64,000 bases of DNA from contig NZ_AP024110.1 in assembly GCF_019703875.1 (NCBI RefSeq), positions 2,455,912-2,519,911 of the forward strand, in the 5' to 3' direction. Below the pieces are notes generated by a model. That model was not told where the DNA came from. It made no database searches and saw nothing but the letters and a program-made list of their open reading frames with translations. The DNA comes from Methyloradius palustris (GTDB taxonomy: Bacteria > Pseudomonadota > Gammaproteobacteria > Burkholderiales > Methylophilaceae). Below, piece by piece: positions 24,257 through 29,711 of this stretch (its first letter is position 1; each line of letters starts with the position of its first letter). The position numbers and the translations under genes were made by a program.

Positions 24257-26515
24257 TTGGTGACGGATAATAGCGCCCACATCATTTGCACCATTTTTGG
24301 AATTCTCCCATGGAAATTAAGGTCAACTTATCTCGATAAGCTACGTCTTGAAGCCAAGTTCGATGACTTCACGGTGATTGCCGACCAGCCTATCCGCTAT
24401 AAAGGCGATGGCTCGGCGCCAGGCCCTTTCGATTACTTTTTGGCTTCATCGGCTTTGTGCGCGGCTTATTTTGTGAAGTTGTACTGCAACACTCGCAATA
24501 TCCCCACCGAAAATATCCGTCTTTCGCACAACAATATTGTCGATCCGGAAAACCGTTACCAGCAGATATTCAAGATCCAGGTCGAGTTGCCGGCGGATAT
24601 CTCCGACAAAGACCGCCAAGGTATCCTGCGCTCCATCGATCGTTGTACAGTTAAAAAAGTAGTGCAAGCCGGCCCCGAGTTTGTCATCGAAGAAGTCGCT
24701 AACCTGGATGCCGATGCACAGGCCTTGCTGACGGTGCAGTCGGCTTCTGACGCCATTACCTATATCGCGGGCAAAGACTTACCTTTAGAGCAAACCATTG
24801 CCAATATGTCTGGCGTGCTGGCGGGCCTTGGCATCAAGATAGAAATCGCGTCGTGGCGCAATATCATTCCCAATGTGTGGTCCTTGCATATCCGCGATGC
24901 ACACTCGCCTATGTGTTTCACTAACGGGAAGGGTTCCACTAAGGAAAGCGCGTTGGCGTCGGCCCTGGGCGAGTATATCGAGCGGCTGAGTAACAACCAT
25001 TTCTATGCCGGTACTTACTGGGGCGAAGATATCGCCAACTCAGAGTTCGTGCATTATCCAAATGAGCGCTGGTTTCAGCCAGGCCGTAAAGATGCGCTGC
25101 CAAAAGAAATTCTGGATGCGTACTGTCTGCAAATCTACAATCCCGATGGTGAGTTACGCGGTTCGCATCTGGTCGATACTAATTCCGGCAATGTGCAGCG
25201 CGGTATTTGTTCGTTGCCCTATGTGCGCAAGTCGGATGGCGAGGTGGTTTATTTTCCATCCAACCTGGTCGAAAACCTCTACGTCAGCAATGGCATGAGT
25301 GCTGGTAATACGCTGGCCGAGGCACAGGTGCAATGCCTGTCGGAGATTTTCGAGCGGGCGATCAAACGTGAAATTATCGAAGGTGAAATCGCCTTGCCTG
25401 ATGTGCCGCAGCAAGTATTGGCGAAATACCCTGGTATTCTCGCAGGCATTCAAGGCTTGGAAGAGCAAGGCTTCCCAGTGATGGTTAAGGATGCGTCACT
25501 GGGTGGGATCTACCCAGTGATGTGTGTCACCTTAATGAATCCGCGCACAGGTGGGGTGTTTGCCTCGTTCGGCGCACATCCAAAACTTGAAGTCGCGCTG
25601 GAACGCAGCCTGACCGAATTGCTTCAAGGCCGCAGTTTTGAAGGCCTGAACGATTTACCGCAACCCACGTTTGCCAGTGAAGCCGTGACTGAGCCCAATA
25701 ACTTTGTTGAACACTTCATCGATTCCAGCGGCATTGTGTCGTGGCGCTTTTTCAGCGCCAAATCGGATTTCGAGTTTGTTGAGTGGGATTTTTCTGGCCA
25801 AGGGGAGAACTCCAATGCTGAGGAAGCCGCCACGTTGCTCGGCATTCTCAAAGCCATGGGCAAGGAGGTATACACGGCAGTCTATGACCAGCTAGGCGCC
25901 GTCGCTTGCCGGATGGTGGTGCCCGGCTATTCGGAAGTTTACCCAATAGAAGATTTGATCTGGGATAACACCAACAAAGCCCTATTGTTCCGCGCCGATA
26001 TCCTGAACTTGCACAACCTAGATGACGCAAACCTGGAAGCGCTGCTTGAGCGTTTGGAGAATAACGAGCTGGATGATTACGGCGATATCGCCACATTGAT
26101 CGGCATCGAATTTGACGAGAATACCGACTGGGGCCAGCTAACCGTTCTGGAGTTAAAGCTGCTAATTCATCTCGCTTTGCAGCAATTTGAGGAAGCGCAT
26201 GAGCTGGTGGGTGCCTTCCTGCAGTACAACGACAACACCGCCGAGCGCGGATTGTTTTACCAAGCCTTGAATGTGGTGCTGGAGGTTCTGCTGGATGATG
26301 ACCTGGAACTCGACGACTACGCGGTCAACTTCCGCCGCATGTTTGGCGATGCCAAGATGGACGCCGCGATGGGCTCAGTGGACGGCAGCGTGCGCTTTTT
26401 CGGCTTAACGCCTACCAGTATGAAACTGGAGGGCCTCGACAGGCATCACCGCCTGATCGACAGCTACAAAAAATTGCATACGGCTCGAGCCAAAATGGCG
26501 GCTACGGCCAGTTAG
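24257..26515 (+). CDS. OsmC-domain / YcaO-domain fusion protein with C-terminal TPR-like region
   Basis: 752 aa; N-terminal OsmC/Ohr-like fold (FDYFLASSALCAAYF); central YcaO ATP-binding core (NGKGSTKESALASALGEYIERLS...SNGMSAGNTLAEAQVQCLSEIFER); acidic helical C-terminus. Confidence 0.8.
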   Translation: MVTDNSAHIICTIFGILPWKLRSTYLDKLRLEAKFDDFTVIADQPIRYKGDGSAPGPFDYFLASSALCAAYFVKLYCNTRNIPTENIRLSHNNIVDPENRYQQIFKIQVELPADISDKDRQGILRSIDRCTVKKVVQAGPEFVIEEVANLDADAQALLTVQSASDAITYIAGKDLPLEQTIANMSGVLAGLGIKIEIASWRNIIPNVWSLHIRDAHSPMCFTNGKGSTKESALASALGEYIERLSNNHFYAGTYWGEDIANSEFVHYPNERWFQPGRKDALPKEILDAYCLQIYNPDGELRGSHLVDTNSGNVQRGICSLPYVRKSDGEVVYFPSNLVENLYVSNGMSAGNTLAEAQVQCLSEIFERAIKREIIEGEIALPDVPQQVLAKYPGILAGIQGLEEQGFPVMVKDASLGGIYPVMCVTLMNPRTGGVFASFGAHPKLEVALERSLTELLQGRSFEGLNDLPQPTFASEAVTEPNNFVEHFIDSSGIVSWRFFSAKSDFEFVEWDFSGQGENSNAEEAATLLGILKAMGKEVYTAVYDQLGAVACRMVVPGYSEVYPIEDLIWDNTNKALLFRADILNLHNLDDANLEALLERLENNELDDYGDIATLIGIEFDENTDWGQLTVLELKLLIHLALQQFEEAHELVGAFLQYNDNTAERGLFYQALNVVLEVLLDDDLELDDYAVNFRRMFGDAKMDAAMGSVDGSVRFFGLTPTSMKLEGLDRHHRLIDSYKKLHTARAKMAATAS

Positions 26516-26915
26516 GATCACGAGTCACGGCATGTGTGCTCTGGGAGCCCCCCAGCGCACATGCATGTTCCAACCTGAGCGACTAACTGTGCTGGCGTTC
26601 AATCAAGCTGGCTGCGGGCGACCCAAAATAGCCATAAAATGGCTAGTAACTATTCAAAAAAATCCGCACTTCCATCCTCTGGTGCAGTCAATAAAGCACG
26701 TCGCTTTAATCACAAACTCAATATTTATCAATTACTTAATCACATCAATTCAAATTAGGCATATATTAATCAATAAATTTTATTTTTATTTGTAAGGATT
26801 TTTCAAATGGCTCGACTAAACGGGGAGAACACAAAATGATGACCATTTTTTAGCAACAAAAAATCAACCGCATTAATAGAAAATCTATCTAATTTTGGTC
26901 AGGGACGGATACATC

Positions 26916-27533
26916 ATGCAAATACATCAACATCCGCTTTACGTAAAAATATGCCACTGGGTAAATGCACTGGCAATTCTTTTAATGGTCACTAGTGGCT
27001 GGCGTATTTACAACGCCTCACCCATTTTTGAATTCAAATTCCCTAAAATGCTGACCATCGGTGGTTGGCTGGGTGGAGCTTTACAATGGCACTTTGCGGC
27101 TATGTGGCTACTGGCTATCAATGGCCTGATTTATCTATTAGTGAATATCATCTCTGGCCGAATGTGGTCAAAGTTTTTACCCATTCGCCCCAAACAATTA
27201 CTCGCTGATTTTCGCGATGCCCTCATGCTAAAGCTTGACCACAGCAACCTGCAAAATTACAACGCCGTACAAAAATCCGCCTATCTCTCGGCCATGCTGT
27301 TCATCATCGTCACCGTGCTTTCTGGCTTGGCAATATGGAAGTCTGTTCAGTTTCCCTTACTGCGTGAACTGATGGGTGGATATGACAACGCACGTATCGT
27401 GCATTTCTTCGCGATGTCATTGATTGTTGCTTTCGTATTCGTACATGTAGTTATGGTGACATTGGTACCCGAAACATTAGTCGCCATGATAGGTAGCTTC
27501 AAACGCAACAAAACAGCAGGAGCGAAATCATGA
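26916..27533 (+). CDS. diheme b-type cytochrome membrane subunit (Ni/Fe-hydrogenase cyt b / cytochrome b561 family)
   Basis: 4 TM helices with conserved His pairs (ICHWVNAL, LQWHFAAMW, VHFFAMS...VHVVMV); ATG with AGGGACGGA RBS; translationally coupled to the next gene. Confidence 0.75.
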   Translation: MQIHQHPLYVKICHWVNALAILLMVTSGWRIYNASPIFEFKFPKMLTIGGWLGGALQWHFAAMWLLAINGLIYLLVNIISGRMWSKFLPIRPKQLLADFRDALMLKLDHSNLQNYNAVQKSAYLSAMLFIIVTVLSGLAIWKSVQFPLLRELMGGYDNARIVHFFAMSLIVAFVFVHVVMVTLVPETLVAMIGSFKRNKTAGAKS

Positions 27534-28303
27534 GCAACCGCCCAAAAGTCGAAGGCGTTGATACTAAATACGTCATCAAACAAGTTGAGAAACAACTCGA
27601 TAGCGCTAGCCGCAGAGAATTTGGCAAGCGTATCTTAAGCCTGGGTACTCTCTCACTGCTCTCTGGCTGTGTACTGACTGATGACGATTCCATCGAAAAA
27701 ATGCTGATGTCAGTCTCGCGCTGGAACGACAAAGTGCAGGGCTTTTTGTTTGACCCCAACAAAATGGCACCGACCTATCCAGAAAGTATGATCACCAAAC
27801 CATTTCCGTTCAATGCCTACTACGGTGAAGACGAAATACGTGTGGTAGATGGTGATAGCTACAAATTAGAACTTAGCGGACTCATTAAAGAGCGCAAGCC
27901 ATGGACACTCACTCAACTCGCGATGCTGCCACAAACCAGCCAAGTCACACGCCATATCTGCGTAGAAGGCTGGAGCGCGATTGGTAAATGGGGTGGCATT
28001 CGATTCTCTGATTTTCTAAACATGGTGGGCGCTGATACAACCGCCAAATACGTTGGATTTAAATGTGCGGATGACTATTACACCAGCATAGATATGCCGA
28101 GCGCCTTACACGCACAGACACAACTCACCATGAGCTTCGCGGATGAAACGCTATCTAAGGAATATGGCTTTCCACTCAAGCTACGCATCCCCACCAAGCT
28201 TGGCTTTAAAAACCCAAAATACATCACAGAGATATACGTCACAAATGATTACCCAGGCGGCTACTGGGAGGATCAAGGGTATAACTGGTTCAGTGGATCC
28301 TGA
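27530..28303 (+). CDS. sulfite-oxidase-family molybdopterin oxidoreductase (periplasmic, Tat/lipobox signal)
   Basis: 257 aa; SRREFGKRIL twin-arginine motif plus LLSGC; Oxidored_molyb signature region (HICVEGWSAIGKWGGIRF...GFPLKLRIPTKLGFKNPKYI). Confidence 0.8.
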   Translation: MSNRPKVEGVDTKYVIKQVEKQLDSASRREFGKRILSLGTLSLLSGCVLTDDDSIEKMLMSVSRWNDKVQGFLFDPNKMAPTYPESMITKPFPFNAYYGEDEIRVVDGDSYKLELSGLIKERKPWTLTQLAMLPQTSQVTRHICVEGWSAIGKWGGIRFSDFLNMVGADTTAKYVGFKCADDYYTSIDMPSALHAQTQLTMSFADETLSKEYGFPLKLRIPTKLGFKNPKYITEIYVTNDYPGGYWEDQGYNWFSGS

Positions 28304-28351
28304 GCCTGTTTGTTCGGCAATTTTGCCATTTTTTACTTGGAGATAGAAACG

Positions 28352-28579
28352 ATGTCTAAATTACTTGGTATTTTATTAGCAGCAACTTTAAGCCTCTGTG
28401 TTGCCGGCGCTCACGCCGATGACATGAAAAAAGATGAAATGATGAAGAAGGATGAAATGTCGCACGACAGCATGAAAAAAGACGACATGATGAAGAAAGA
28501 TTCCATGTCTAAAGACAGTATGAAAAAGGATGAAATGATGAAAAAGGACGACATGAAGAAAGATGAAATGAAGCACTAA
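28352..28579 (+). CDS. secreted methionine-rich MXKDX pentapeptide-repeat protein
   Basis: Signal peptide then 11 tandem M-K-K-D-E/D/S-M units; about 24% Met in the mature 54 aa; ends KH. Confidence 0.7.
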   Translation: MSKLLGILLAATLSLCVAGAHADDMKKDEMMKKDEMSHDSMKKDDMMKKDSMSKDSMKKDEMMKKDDMKKDEMKH

Positions 28580-28632
28580 TCATTTCCTGGCATGTCAGAA
28601 CGGACTCAACTCAGTGGGAGTGAGTCCGTTTT

Positions 28633-29049
28633 TTATGGCTTTGGTGCACTCCAGCGCAGAACTGAATTCAGCATGTATGGGAATGGCAATTTTGAAAGCC
28701 AGTGCCTATTGTCAGCCACCCAAGGATATGCTCGGCTTAATATAGGTCTCAGCATTTTACTACCCCAAAATTTACTTAATTTACTGAAGCCTGCCGCCGC
28801 ATATGCGGCCTCAAATACATCAACACCTTTTATCCACTGGCCTGCAGCATCTTGGGCATGAATGCGTTCCATCATCGCCTCTTTGTTTGTAGGGCAACTT
28901 GGTGGCTCGGTGAATTCCATGGCTGAGCAATCCACCAGGATAAGATTTTCATCAAAATCAGTTTCCTTGATGGTATGCATTTCTGCTGAGCAGAGTGGAC
29001 AAGAGGCATCATAGAAAATCGTTAATGGATAAGTAATCTGGATGGTCAT
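28633..29049 (-). CDS. DCC-family thiol-disulfide oxidoreductase (DUF393)
   Basis: 138 aa; N-terminal YDASCPLC CxxC motif and overall DCC1-like pattern. Confidence 0.75.
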   Translation of the reverse strand: MTIQITYPLTIFYDASCPLCSAEMHTIKETDFDENLILVDCSAMEFTEPPSCPTNKEAMMERIHAQDAAGQWIKGVDVFEAAYAAAGFSKLSKFWGSKMLRPILSRAYPWVADNRHWLSKLPFPYMLNSVLRWSAPKP

Positions 29050-29597
29050 TTTTTGCTCCTGATCAAGTTTTGAATCTTTGCCCCATACTTCATAATTTTG
29101 GTGAGTGTTTCTGGTTTTAGCCTGATCATTTCGTCACCCCAAATTGAGAGCGTCTCCATCAAAGTCAGAATATCTTCTACCCGCTTCTTGGCATCTTTCT
29201 CTTCTTCAGAAAATTTGCTTTCTGCCGCGAATTTTTTGAGGAAGTTGACAGTAGGGTCAAACTCGCGCGCCTTACGTTCGATAATCACCGTACTAAATAA
29301 TTGCCATATATCCAGTGAAGTCTCGAAATAATCGCGTCTATCGCCCATCACATGAGTGATATGCACTAGGTTCCAGTTTTGTAACTCTTTCAAACTATTA
29401 CTCACGTTCGAGCGTGCAACCATCAAGTTGCTGGCAATCTGCTCCGCATTCAACGGCTTGCCTGTGTAGTAAAGCAAGGCATGTATCTGCGAAACCGTAC
29501 GATTAATGCCCCATTGCGCGCCCATTTCGCCCCAATGCAAGACAAATTGTCTTCCAAGGTCACTGAGTGCAATTTGTTCTGTTGATTCATTTTCCAT
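29046..29597 (-). CDS. GbsR/MarR-family transcriptional regulator
   Basis: wHTH region (QIASNLMVARSNVSNSLKELQNWNLV) with GbsR-like N-terminus; start moved to the Met with AGGAG RBS. Confidence 0.7.
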   Translation of the reverse strand: MENESTEQIALSDLGRQFVLHWGEMGAQWGINRTVSQIHALLYYTGKPLNAEQIASNLMVARSNVSNSLKELQNWNLVHITHVMGDRRDYFETSLDIWQLFSTVIIERKAREFDPTVNFLKKFAAESKFSEEEKDAKKRVEDILTLMETLSIWGDEMIRLKPETLTKIMKYGAKIQNLIRSKK

Positions 29598-29711
29598 CTT
29601 TAAATCTCCTGCTTGATTAATCTGCTTGACCAATTATCTTTCATGTCATATATTTCTGTCAATACAGAAATTACAGAATATTAGAAATTTAGACAAGTTA
29701 AGGGGAACGAT

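What the first reader, a model, noticed from the sequence alone, without database searches (positions are those of the whole stretch)
26916..28579. Cytochrome b + sulfite-oxidase-family molybdoenzyme followed by a secreted 24%-methionine MXKDX-repeat peptide: candidate periplasmic oxidant-scavenging module
A Tat/lipobox molybdoenzyme coupled to a diheme cytochrome b is followed by a signal-peptide protein made of eleven MKKD[EDS]M repeats. This resembles the MsrPQ-type methionine-sulfoxide repair logic and the Met-rich sacrificial peptide MrpX described with a YedY homologue in Azospira. There, the Met-rich peptide sinks hypochlorite and the molybdoenzyme re-reduces it. The membrane partner here is a PF01292-type cytochrome b rather than MsrQ, so this would be a variant wiring.
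Basis: partly seen in the sequence, partly recalled or inferred. Interest (0 to 1): 0.55.

Follow-up and report, generated by a model that had tools for sequence, protein, structure and literature searches.

The report
Known methionine-cycling oxidant defence operon
These three genes form another copy of an already described bacterial envelope defence, in which a secreted methionine-rich peptide is thought to soak up oxidants such as bleach and a molybdenum enzyme fed by a membrane cytochrome b restores it; the "unusual" cytochrome partner is the normal one for this system.

Summary
Window 26916-28579 (+) holds a compact operon: a PF01292 dihaem cytochrome b, a Tat-exported lipoprotein of the sulfite-oxidase fold, and a 75-aa secreted MXKDX-repeat peptide whose mature part is 24.5% Met. 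An ECF-type promoter motif precedes it and a strong terminator follows.

The functional reading is supported. The cytochrome b gene sits next to the Mo gene in 80/80 related genome loci, and the peptide follows in 49. Secreted MsrA/MsrB, SigF/NrsF and SigF-type promoters recur beside them.

The "variant wiring" claim is wrong. The Azospira yedZ1 gene is listed in the 2013 paper as a cytochrome b (PF00033), not an MsrQ. UPEC CFT073 c3566-c3568 is a cytochrome b, a Mo enzyme and a Met-rich peptide. The CFT073 Mo enzyme is 56% identical to the window's (E 2e-106), against 27% for E. coli MsrP. The window cytochrome shows no similarity to MsrQ.

So this is a new Methylophilaceae member of a known, experimentally studied system that the literature loosely calls "YedYZ/MsrPQ-like". 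Two points may be new: a second promoter class (TGTAAG-N15/16-CGACTAA) shared with msrA/msrB and thioredoxin-CcdA genes, and the explicit statement that this clade's partner is not MsrQ. Methionine-sulfoxide reductase activity of this clade remains untested in vitro in the papers I read.

The parts
26791..26819 (+). ECF-sigma-type promoter-like motif TGTAAGG-N15-CGACTAA ('class B'), about 95 nt upstream of the cytochrome b start codon
   Evidence: It is the only match to TGTAAG-N15-17-CGAC in the 64 kb window, where 0.19 are expected. The same motif lies upstream of the cytochrome b gene in relatives L201, L203, L205, L207 and L208, and in 9 of the 80 genome loci. In other loci it also precedes msrA (L048), msrB-msrA (L210), and thioredoxin-CcdA, DUF1223 and an EF-hand protein gene (L207). 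Function as a promoter is inferred, not shown.
26916..27533 (+). Four-helix dihaem cytochrome b (PF01292), predicted quinol-linked membrane electron carrier for the Mo enzyme
   Evidence: PF01292 E 1.1e-24. His14, His59, His109, His163 and His177 are invariant in 80 homologues, and hydropathy shows about four TM-like segments. A homologue lies directly upstream of the Mo gene in 80/80 loci. It is 53% identical to the E. coli plasmid pVR50B cytochrome b. It shows no similarity to E. coli MsrQ (E 4.9).
27530..28303 (+). Tat-exported, lipobox-bearing sulfite-oxidase-fold molybdoenzyme of the YedY-like clade; predicted methionine-sulfoxide reductase
   Evidence: PF00174 E 8.6e-27. The best NCBIfam model is MsrP at 67.6 bits, below its cut-off of 207. 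Cys144 in the motif RHICVEGWS aligns with the Mo-ligand Cys102 of YedY 1xdq. It is 56% identical to UPEC CFT073 C3567 (E 2e-106) and 27% identical to E. coli MsrP. The Foldseek top hits are YedY 1xdy/1xdq, on a model of only pLDDT 63.
28352..28579 (+). Secreted MXKDX-repeat Met-rich peptide (MrpX/BcrX/C3568-like): 22-aa Sec signal ending AHA, then a 53-aa mature part with 13 Met
   Evidence: TIGR02953 at 55.8 bits, above the cut-off of 41. An equivalent peptide follows the Mo gene in 49/80 loci. Across 48 such peptides the composition is K 25.5%, M 19.6%, D 18.2%, and 45 of 48 contain no Cys, Trp, Tyr or Phe.
28597..28638 (+). Intrinsic terminator closing the operon (hairpin 28597-28632 plus a U-tract)
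   Evidence: The RNA fold gives -25.7 kcal/mol with z-score -3.56, and 0 of 200 shuffles fold as well. The next gene is convergent (28633-29049, - strand).

Best explanation
The three genes are a Methylophilaceae copy of the known cytochrome b / YedY-like molybdoenzyme / Met-rich peptide system. That system is published as Azospira yedZ1-yedY1-mrpX and UPEC c3566-c3568; Brucella bcrXQP probably belongs too, but I did not examine its sequences.

Proposed mechanism:
1. An ECF-type sigma factor that is not encoded in the window transcribes the operon from the TGTAAGG-N15-CGACTAA motif (inferred).
2. The peptide is exported by Sec and cleaved after AHA. It stays unfolded in the periplasm, where its 13 methionines react with hypochlorite, chloramines or peroxides to give methionine sulfoxide. 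The chemistry and the sacrificial role are taken from the Azospira work.
3. The molybdoenzyme is exported folded by Tat and lipid-anchored at Cys47.
4. The enzyme receives electrons from the quinol pool through the two haems of the cytochrome b and reduces the sulfoxides back, so the peptide works as a renewable oxidant sink.

Shown here: the gene content, the motifs, orthology, conserved neighbourhood and promoter motifs. Inferred: the catalytic activity, the direction of electron flow, the inducer and the membrane to which the lipoprotein is sorted.
For: Orthology. The Mo enzyme is 56% identical to UPEC CFT073 C3567 (E 2e-106) and 54% identical to the E. coli plasmid copy. The cytochrome b is 53% identical to the plasmid copy. 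The CFT073 locus reads HK/RR, then cytochrome b, Mo enzyme, an 80-aa Met-rich peptide and hlyCA.

Published phenotypes. c3566 and c3567 mutants are sensitive to tert-butyl hydroperoxide, and the paper's section heading attributes resistance to H2O2 and survival within macrophages to C3566/C3567 (PMC8550376). Azospira mrpX is induced 20-60-fold by chlorite or hypochlorite, and MrpX is oxidised and then re-reduced in vivo (PMC4436054). Azospira 'yedZ' is listed as cytochrome b PF00033 (PMC3884062).

Neighbourhood. The cytochrome b is adjacent in 80/80 loci and the peptide lies downstream in 49/80, with 2 more upstream. Of 118 metagenome loci chosen only by an MXKDX DNA pattern, 39 carry this Mo family and none carries a canonical MsrP. 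A secreted MsrA occurs in 15 of the 80 loci. SigF and NrsF each occur in about 10. Among the close relatives examined, L203, L208 and L209 have cytochrome b, Mo enzyme, peptide, MsrB and MsrA in one row, and L210 has msrB-msrA convergent just downstream; in L203 MsrB has a Tat signal and MsrA a Sec signal.

Promoters. There are 33 SigF-type TGTAACC-N16-CGAA sites in the 80 loci against 0.45 expected. They match the 5'-RACE-mapped Brucella bcrXQP promoter.

Enzyme type. MsrP is the best-scoring NCBIfam model, the best PDB sequence hit and the best fold hit. The active-site motif CVEGWS matches YedY's CVEAWS.

Peptide design. The median peptide is 20% Met, and the pooled composition is about 46% charged with almost no irreversibly oxidisable residues. 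This matches MrpX, reported as 20% Met and 44% charged.
Against: Nothing has been measured in this organism. In the papers I read, the methionine-sulfoxide reductase activity of this clade is called 'putative' and rests on analogy with E. coli YedY.

The window has no SigF/NrsF, no histidine-kinase/response-regulator pair and no msrA within 64 kb. The class B promoter motif has no identified sigma factor.

The UPEC work reports peroxide rather than hypochlorite phenotypes, so the relevant oxidant is uncertain.

In loci that also encode periplasmic MsrA and MsrB, the Mo enzyme could be redundant or could have another substrate.

The lipoprotein sorting signal is variable. The residue after Cys47 is Val here, and I cannot tell whether the enzyme stays at the inner membrane next to its cytochrome.

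The structure model is of modest confidence (pLDDT 63).
Confidence: 0.72

Rival explanations
1. The Met-rich peptide is mainly a periplasmic Cu(I)/Ag(I) or other soft-metal buffer. On this view the operon is a metal-stress module, and the Mo enzyme repairs copper-driven methionine oxidation or does something unrelated.
For: Methionine-rich stretches are classical Cu(I) ligands (general knowledge). The SigF/NrsF pair found beside many of these operons responds to chromium and cadmium in Caulobacter (PMC3511200). One locus, L008, has a His-rich heavy-metal ATPase-like gene just downstream.
Against: No cop, cus or pco-type genes recur among the conserved neighbours. The recurrent neighbours are MsrA, MsrB, CcdA, a thioredoxin-like DUF1223, and SigF/NrsF. 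Azospira mrpX is induced by chlorite and hypochlorite and MrpX is oxidised by them, and Brucella bcrXQP is HOCl-induced. The repeat places Met every five residues rather than in MxM or MxxM clusters.
Confidence: 0.1
2. The cytochrome b and Mo enzyme pair works in the oxidising direction, for example as a sulfite or other substrate:quinone oxidoreductase. The peptide would then be an unrelated or merely protective passenger.
For: The enzyme has the sulfite-oxidase fold (PF00174). PF01292 cytochromes b, such as FdnI and HyaC, normally pass electrons from a periplasmic dehydrogenase to quinone (general knowledge). Weak hits to the SoxC and SorA models exist.
Against: The SoxC and SorA scores of 35.9 and 34.1 bits are far below their cut-offs of 420 and 600 and below the MsrP score of 67.6. 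The Cys motif is YedY-like (CVEGWS) rather than the CAGNRR of sulfite oxidases, and in the plant enzyme alignment the Cys region does not align. No Mo-co dimerisation domain was found. [quoted passage not shown] No sulfur-oxidation genes recur nearby.
Confidence: 0.06
3. The Mo enzyme is a general periplasmic S-/N-oxide or protein Met-O reductase for many envelope proteins or small molecules. The peptide would be an independent scavenger that is not its dedicated substrate and is repaired mainly by periplasmic MsrA/MsrB where these are present.
For: E. coli MsrP repairs many envelope proteins and free Met-O (PMC7759655). About a third of the 80 loci lack the peptide; in at least eight Burkholderia-group loci a different ~205-aa secreted protein sits in third position. 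MsrA and MsrB are often in the same cluster.
Against: The peptide is the commonest third gene, in 49/80 loci. The Mo family is the commonest identifiable neighbour of MXKDX peptides, in 39/118 loci. This tight, bidirectional linkage argues for a direct functional pair.
Confidence: 0.12

Closest known systems
UPEC CFT073 c3566-c3567-c3568 with the two-component system C3564/C3565 (Gu et al. 2021, PMC8550376)
   Same: The three-gene order is identical: PF01292-type cytochrome b, ~250-aa Mo oxidoreductase, ~80-aa secreted Met-rich peptide. The Mo enzyme is 56% identical (E 2e-106). The plasmid-borne E. coli copy of the cytochrome is 53% identical.
   Different: In E. coli a divergent histidine kinase and response regulator control the operon, and it is read through into hlyCABD. 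The window has neither, and carries an ECF-type promoter motif instead. The E. coli peptides contain Cys and score below the TIGR02953 cut-off (35-36 bits).
Azospira suillum PS nrsF-sigF / yedZ1-yedY1-mrpX (Melnyk et al. 2013 and 2015)
   Same: The order is the same: cytochrome b first, then the PF00174 enzyme, then a ~20% Met charged secreted peptide. 'yedZ' is listed as cytochrome b PF00033, not as a ferric-reductase-type MsrQ. The published model is the one proposed here. Other Rhodocyclales-type loci in my set (L054, L071, L078) show the same genes with SigF promoters.
   Different: I could not obtain the Azospira sequences, so orthology is inferred from annotation, gene order and the authors' statement that the UPEC operon is the same system. 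The Azospira operon lies in the perchlorate-reduction island under SigF/NrsF. The window has no SigF/NrsF and a different promoter motif.
Brucella melitensis bcrXQP with BcrS/AbcS (Li et al. 2021, PMC8315932)
   Same: It has an MXKDX-repeat peptide plus 'MsrQP homologues', is HOCl-induced, and contributes to HOCl resistance. Its mapped promoter, -35 TGTAAC and -10 GCGAAA, equals my class A motif. The peptide-first gene order is also seen in L033, L068, L113, L149 and L177.
   Different: The gene order differs, with the peptide first. Whether BcrQ is a PF01292 cytochrome was not checked, because no sequence was available to me.
E. coli MsrPQ (YedYZ), the canonical periplasmic Met-O reductase
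   Same: It shares the Mo-pterin sulfite-oxidase fold, Tat export, the Mo-ligand Cys in a CVE[AG]WS motif, and a quinone-linked membrane haem partner. It is the closest solved structure.
   Different: Identity is only 27% over 160 residues, and the MsrP model scores 67.6 bits against a cut-off of 207. The window enzyme is ~80 residues shorter and carries a lipobox. Its partner is a 4-TM PF01292 cytochrome b with no detectable similarity to MsrQ, which is PF01794. In MsrPQ the gene order is reversed and there is no Met-rich peptide gene.
'Group 1B YedY-like' sulfite-oxidase-family enzymes (Kappler 2008, as summarised in PMC7759655)
   Same: They are described as ~30 kDa, smaller than the 35 kDa of YedY, and as interacting with a different membrane cytochrome. 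The 257-aa window enzyme with its PF01292 partner fits that description.
   Different: Assignment is by description only. I had no reference sequences or tree from that classification.

Membership tests
Cytochrome b / YedY-like / Met-rich peptide system (Azospira yedZ1Y1-mrpX, UPEC c3566-c3568) | Mo subunit orthologous to a studied member | tested here: met
   56% identity over 238 aa, E 2e-106, to CFT073 C3567; 54% to the pVR50B copy.
Cytochrome b / YedY-like / Met-rich peptide system (Azospira yedZ1Y1-mrpX, UPEC c3566-c3568) | Membrane partner is a dihaem cytochrome b of the PF01292/PF00033 kind, encoded directly upstream | tested here: met
   PF01292 E 1e-24. 53% identical to the E. coli plasmid copy, which is also PF01292. 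The Azospira gene is listed as cytochrome b PF00033.
Cytochrome b / YedY-like / Met-rich peptide system (Azospira yedZ1Y1-mrpX, UPEC c3566-c3568) | Small secreted, charged, ~20% Met peptide gene in the same operon | tested here: met
   75 aa with a signal peptide; the mature part is 24.5% Met. It lies 48 nt downstream of the Mo gene with a terminator after it.
Cytochrome b / YedY-like / Met-rich peptide system (Azospira yedZ1Y1-mrpX, UPEC c3566-c3568) | Adjacent oxidant-sensing regulator (SigF/NrsF or HK/RR) | tested here: not met
   tblastn found no SigF, NrsF or MsrA in the 64 kb window. The neighbours are OsmC-YcaO, a DCC1-like protein and a MarR-like protein. Only a conserved ECF-like promoter motif is present. 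Adjacent SigF/NrsF is itself seen in only about one in eight of the 80 related loci, so its absence here is not unusual.
Cytochrome b / YedY-like / Met-rich peptide system (Azospira yedZ1Y1-mrpX, UPEC c3566-c3568) | Induction by, and protection against, reactive chlorine or oxygen species | not testable with these tools
   This needs expression and mutant data in the host organism.
Canonical MsrPQ (E. coli YedYZ) | Catalytic subunit reaches the MsrP equivalog model cut-off | tested here: not met
   NF003767 scores 67.6 bits against a cut-off of 207. Identity to E. coli MsrP is 27%.
Canonical MsrPQ (E. coli YedYZ) | Partner is MsrQ, a ferric-reductase-like flavocytochrome (PF01794) | tested here: not met
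   E. coli MsrQ is PF01794. The window cytochrome is PF01292 only, and BLASTP between the two gives E 4.9.
Canonical MsrPQ (E. coli YedYZ) | Mo-ligand cysteine and Tat signal | tested here: met
   Cys144 aligns with YedY Cys102. The SRREFGK twin-arginine motif has R28 and R29 invariant.
TIGR02953 pentapeptide MXKDX repeat protein | Score above the curated cut-off | tested here: met
   55.8 bits against 41.
PF01292 prokaryotic cytochrome b561 (FdnI/HyaC-like dihaem cytochromes) | HMM above the gathering score, and four conserved His haem ligands on TM1, TM2 and TM4 (two) | tested here: met
   87.7 bits against 30.1. His14, His59, His163 and His177 are invariant in 80 sequences. Haem binding itself was not tested.
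Sulfite-oxidising enzymes (SorA, SoxC, SO) | Model cut-offs, a C-terminal dimerisation domain, and a CAGNRR-type active-site loop | tested here: not met
   SoxC scores 35.9 against 420 and SorA 34.1 against 600. PF00174 is the only Pfam hit, so no Mo-co dimerisation domain was found. The Cys motif is CVEGWS, as in YedY.
Group 1B 'YedY-like' SO-family enzymes (Kappler 2008) | ~30 kDa Mo subunit with a cytochrome different from YedZ | tested here: inconclusive
   Size (257 aa) and partner fit the description quoted in PMC7759655. No reference sequences were available for a tree.

The most novel reading that the evidence does not exclude
In Methylophilaceae and a scattering of other Betaproteobacteria, the operon is driven by a previously undescribed ECF-type promoter class, TGTAAG-N15/16-CGACTAA. 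This class is distinct from the SigF motif TGTAACC-N16-CGAA. It also precedes msrA, msrB-msrA, thioredoxin-CcdA, DUF1223 and an EF-hand protein gene. It would define an unrecognised envelope methionine/thiol-repair regulon whose sigma factor and signal are unknown. Together with this, the 'MsrPQ-like' label used in the literature hides the fact that the clade recruited an FdnI-like dihaem cytochrome b and a lipid anchor independently of MsrQ.
Probability: 0.45. Interest if true: 0.4.

Novelty: new member of a known kind. Interest (0 to 1): 0.3.

Why it matters
The window itself adds little. It extends a known oxidant-defence module to a freshwater methylotroph lineage.

The useful by-products concern the field's bookkeeping:
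- The MrpX-type systems studied in Azospira and UPEC, and probably in Brucella, are not MsrPQ paralogues in the strict sense. They form a separate, very widespread clade with a lipoprotein Mo enzyme and a PF01292 cytochrome b. I found more than 590 matches among the species-representative genomes, and 353 of 5426 E. coli genomes carry it, including on IS26-flanked plasmids.
- The biochemical activity of this clade has not been demonstrated in the papers I could read.
- A second promoter class links the operon to periplasmic MsrA/MsrB and thiol-repair genes.

These points make the enzymology and the regulation directly testable.

Tried and rejected
(1) I first treated the PF01292 partner as a real departure from the Azospira system. 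I dropped this once the 2013 Azospira gene table and the UPEC paper showed the same cytochrome b partner, and once direct comparison gave 56% identity to CFT073 C3567.

(2) I looked for a SigF-type promoter and for sigF, nrsF and msrA in the window. None was found.

(3) The simple sigma-70 and terminator scan gave nothing above shuffles and missed the real terminator because of its bulged stem. Folding the region recovered it.

(4) The AlphaFold model from 30 close homologues was only pLDDT 63. I used it for the Foldseek ranking only and not for active-site geometry.

(5) I tried to reach the Azospira protein by searching with an Azonexus homologue. The best 120 hits were from Dechloromonas, Azonexus and Ferribacterium, with none from Azospira. 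No supplements are held for Melnyk 2015.

(6) The DCC1-like and MarR-like genes downstream are shared only with the 96%-identical relative and are replaced in the 91% relative. I therefore did not count them as part of the system. The same reasoning excludes the upstream OsmC-YcaO gene.

(7) A copper-resistance context was considered and rejected, because no such genes recur among the neighbours.

(8) Literature searches for the Pfam pair and for 'YedY-like' returned only one review.
Full report
WHAT IS THERE. Window 26916-28579 (+) contains three tightly packed genes.

The first gene (26916-27533, 205 aa) is a PF01292 'prokaryotic cytochrome b561' with E 1.1e-24. In an alignment of 80 homologues, His14, His59, His163 and His177 are invariant. 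That is one His on the first helix, one on the second and two spaced 14 residues apart on the last, which is the pattern of a dihaem cytochrome b. His109 is also invariant.

The second gene (27530-28303, 257 aa) starts at an ATG that overlaps the first gene's stop codon. It is a PF00174 molybdopterin-binding domain protein. It carries a twin-arginine motif (SRREFGK) and a lipobox (LSGC47). R28, R29 and C47 are invariant in 30 homologues of 65-96% identity.

The third gene (28352-28579, 75 aa) has a GGAGA ribosome-binding site and a Sec signal ending in AHA. Its 53-residue mature part consists only of K, D, M, S, E and H, with 13 Met (24.5%). It passes the curated cut-off of TIGR02953 'pentapeptide MXKDX repeat protein' (55.8 against 41 bits).

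A strong hairpin and U-tract follow at 28597-28638 (-25.7 kcal/mol, z -3.56), and the next gene is convergent. The exceptions are the repeat count (I find nine pentads, seven of them exact MKKD[EDS]M) and the Met percentage, which applies to the mature peptide. The closest protein in the public collection is 96% identical and comes from a Methylophilaceae MAG.

IS THE ARRANGEMENT MEANINGFUL? I scanned species-representative genomes with an alignment of the Mo enzyme. At least 593 matched stretches encoded relatives, and the 80 best loci were kept. They come mostly from Betaproteobacteria and Pseudomonas.

The cytochrome b gene lies directly upstream in 80 of 80 loci. A secreted MXKDX-type peptide gene lies directly downstream on the same strand in 49 loci and upstream in two more. 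Three loci end too early to tell.

I then ran the reverse test. I collected 120 metagenome contigs by nothing but a degenerate DNA pattern for MKKDxMxKDxM. Of these, 118 encode a small Met-rich ORF containing the repeat. Of those 118, 39 carry this same Mo family, mostly immediately upstream, and none carries a canonical MsrP. The contigs are short and the pattern is biased, so these are lower bounds.

Across 48 operon-linked peptides the sequence drifts freely but the composition is fixed: K 25.5%, M 19.6%, D 18.2%. Forty-five of the 48 have no Cys, Trp, Tyr or Phe. That is what one expects of an unfolded peptide selected for reversible oxidation only.

WHAT TRAVELS WITH IT. I clustered all neighbouring ORFs in the 80 loci and annotated the recurrent ones. 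The result was:
- a signal-peptide-bearing MsrA in 15 loci, in 13 of them on the same strand as the operon;
- an ECF sigma factor in about 10 loci;
- an NrsF anti-sigma factor (PF06532) in 8-10 loci;
- a CcdA/DsbD-type thiol transporter in 6 loci.

In several loci a DUF1223 protein with a CxxC motif sits between the promoter and the cytochrome gene.

Close relatives of the window tell the same story. L203 and L208 (79-81% identical Mo enzyme) have cytochrome b, Mo enzyme, peptide, MsrB and MsrA in a row, and L209 has the same row, its peptide gene interrupted by a run of N. In L203 MsrB has a Tat signal and MsrA a Sec signal. L210 has msrB-msrA convergent. By contrast, the window's own flanking genes (OsmC-YcaO upstream; DCC1-like and MarR-like downstream) are not conserved even at 91-96% identity. 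I do not count them as part of the system.

PROMOTERS. The SigF-type motif TGTAACC-N16-CGAA occurs 33 times in the 80 loci against 0.45 expected from shuffles. It typically forms divergent pairs between sigF and the operon. It matches the Brucella bcrXQP promoter mapped by 5'-RACE, with -35 TGTAAC and -10 GCGAAA.

The window has no such site and no sigF, nrsF or msrA. Instead it has TGTAAGG-N15-CGACTAA at 26791-26819. This is the only match to the core pattern in 64 kb, where 0.19 are expected.

The same 'class B' motif lies upstream of the cytochrome gene in L201, L203, L205, L207 and L208, and in nine of the 80 loci. That is nine of the 13 class B sites in those loci, all falling in a zone that makes up under 1% of the sequence. 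In L207 the motif occurs four times in 9.6 kb. Each copy is correctly oriented in front of a gene: thioredoxin-CcdA, DUF1223, an EF-hand protein and the cytochrome. In L210 it precedes msrB-msrA, and in L048 it precedes msrA. I take it as a second ECF-type promoter class for an envelope-repair regulon. The sigma factor is unknown and the promoter function is inferred.

WHAT KIND OF ENZYME. E. coli YedY/MsrP is the best NCBIfam model (67.6 bits against 35.9 for SoxC and 34.1 for SorA). It is also the best PDB sequence hit (1xdq, E 2.3e-15) and the best Foldseek hit, although the model is only pLDDT 63.

Cys144 in RHICVEGWS aligns with the Mo-ligand Cys102 of YedY in RMRCVEAWS. The plant sulfite oxidase Cys loop does not align, and there is no dimerisation domain.

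The protein is nevertheless not an MsrP. Its score is far below the cut-off of 207 and its identity to E. coli MsrP is 27%. It is about 80 residues shorter and it is a lipoprotein. Its partner is also not MsrQ: E. coli MsrQ is PF01794, and BLASTP against the window cytochrome gives E 4.9.

THE TURNING POINT: THIS WIRING IS THE KNOWN ONE. It does not.
- The gene table of Melnyk et al. [quoted passage not shown] This is the same order as here.
- Gu et al. 2021 describe c3566 as 'cytochrome B' in UPEC CFT073. They describe c3567 as 27.6% identical to MsrP and c3568 as a Met-rich MrpX homologue. The genes are controlled by the C3564/C3565 two-component system, and c3566 and c3567 mutants are sensitive to tert-butyl hydroperoxide.
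- I fetched that locus (NC_004431.1 3415551-3417189). Its Mo enzyme is 56% identical to the window's (E 2e-106).
- An IS26-flanked plasmid copy (pVR50B) is 54% identical for the Mo enzyme and 53% for the cytochrome, which is PF01292.
- The module is present in 353 of 5426 complete E. coli genomes, at 291 chromosomal and 75 plasmid places.
- Melnyk et al. [quoted passage not shown] My synteny results therefore largely reproduce published observations.
- A review notes 'group 1B YedY-like' enzymes of 30 kDa with a different cytochrome, with no characterised member. The window enzyme fits that description.

MECHANISM. I consider the published methionine redox-cycling model the most likely one (confidence about 0.7). 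The secreted unfolded peptide scavenges hypochlorite, chloramines or peroxides through its methionines. The membrane-anchored Mo enzyme reduces the sulfoxides with electrons that the dihaem cytochrome b takes from quinol.

Shown here are the parts, their orthology and their conserved company. Taken from the literature on orthologues are inducibility, peptide oxidation and re-reduction in vivo, and the mutant phenotypes. Still inferred everywhere, as far as I could read, is the enzyme's Met-O reductase activity. For this organism the inducer is also inferred.

The rivals are a metal-buffering peptide (about 0.1), an oxidising sulfite-type enzyme (about 0.06), and a general reductase for which the peptide is not the dedicated substrate (about 0.12). 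The neighbourhood evidence, the active-site motif and the bidirectional linkage disfavour them but do not exclude them.

VERDICT. The functional interpretation is supported, and the 'variant wiring' claim is not. This is a new member, in Methylophilaceae, of a known and experimentally studied kind of system. What may be worth a specialist's attention is the class B promoter and its apparent regulon, the explicit separation of this clade from MsrPQ, and the lack of direct enzymology for it. Interest is 0.3.

Noticed in passing
window 26791-26819; L207 2892(-), 2968(+), 6610(+), 7325(+); L210 6081(-); L048 4162(-): A second ECF-like promoter class, TGTAAG-N15/16-CGACTAA, precedes several genes in different loci: the operon itself, msrA, msrB-msrA, thioredoxin-CcdA, DUF1223 and an EF-hand protein gene. 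No sigma factor gene lies next to any of these sites.
   Followed up: partly
L013, L016, L017, L023, L028, L039, L045, L067 (third gene after the Mo gene): In Burkholderia, Caballeronia, Paraburkholderia and Robbsia loci the Met-rich peptide is replaced by a conserved ~205-aa secreted protein. It begins '...IRGDIVS.SGDTLTVHRRSGDTVTI...', is not Met-rich, and has only one weak Pfam hit below the gathering score (Myosin_N, E 8.7e-4). It could be a different client of the same enzyme.
   Followed up: no
L094, L120, L122, L142, L173, L182 (human-gut metagenome contigs): Several gut-metagenome contigs (probably Gram-positive) encode a Met/Asp/Lys/Ser-rich lipoprotein (signal ending ...LAAC, then MKKDDMKKDDMK...). 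ORF clustering across the MXKDX metagenome loci groups it with a CcdA-type transporter, a membrane-anchored MsrAB fusion and an OmpR-type response regulator; representatives come from L122 and L173. This would be a cytochrome-free version of the Met-rich peptide plus Msr theme.
   Followed up: no
L212 (E. coli CFT073 NC_004431.1 3415551-3416149): RefSeq marks the CFT073 cytochrome b gene (c3566) as a frameshifted pseudogene. The published c3566 deletion nevertheless has a phenotype that is complemented in trans (PMC8550376).
   Followed up: no
L211 (E. coli plasmid pVR50B 72114-76096) and 74 further plasmid places: The HK/RR, cytochrome b, Mo enzyme and peptide module sits between IS26 and transposase remnants on IncF-type plasmids of human E. 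coli isolates. It is only ~73% identical in DNA to the chromosomal UPEC copy. There are thus two lineages of the module in E. coli, one of them mobile.
   Followed up: partly
L006, L015, L069, L079 (gene between the SigF promoter and the cytochrome b gene): A ~260-aa secreted DUF1223 protein with a CSSCPP motif is the first gene of the SigF-driven operon in several loci. The same protein family was recurrent in the metagenome set.
   Followed up: partly
window 24257-26515 (+): This is an OsmC-domain/YcaO-domain fusion protein (TIGR03549, 1456 bits) directly upstream. It is not conserved next to the operon in the 96% and 91% relatives, where a chemoreceptor gene or an SDR/HxlR pair takes its place.
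   Followed up: partly
window 28633-29633 (-): A DCC1-like thiol-disulfide oxidoreductase (PF04134) and a MarR/GbsR-like regulator are convergent with the operon. They are shared with the 96% relative only, so they are probably an unrelated redox-flavoured pair.
   Followed up: partly
window 28352-28579 versus L201 8822-9049: Between two genomes whose Mo enzymes are 96% identical, the peptides differ by whole-repeat rearrangements while keeping the same length and composition. This suggests rapid repeat shuffling under selection for composition only.
   Followed up: no
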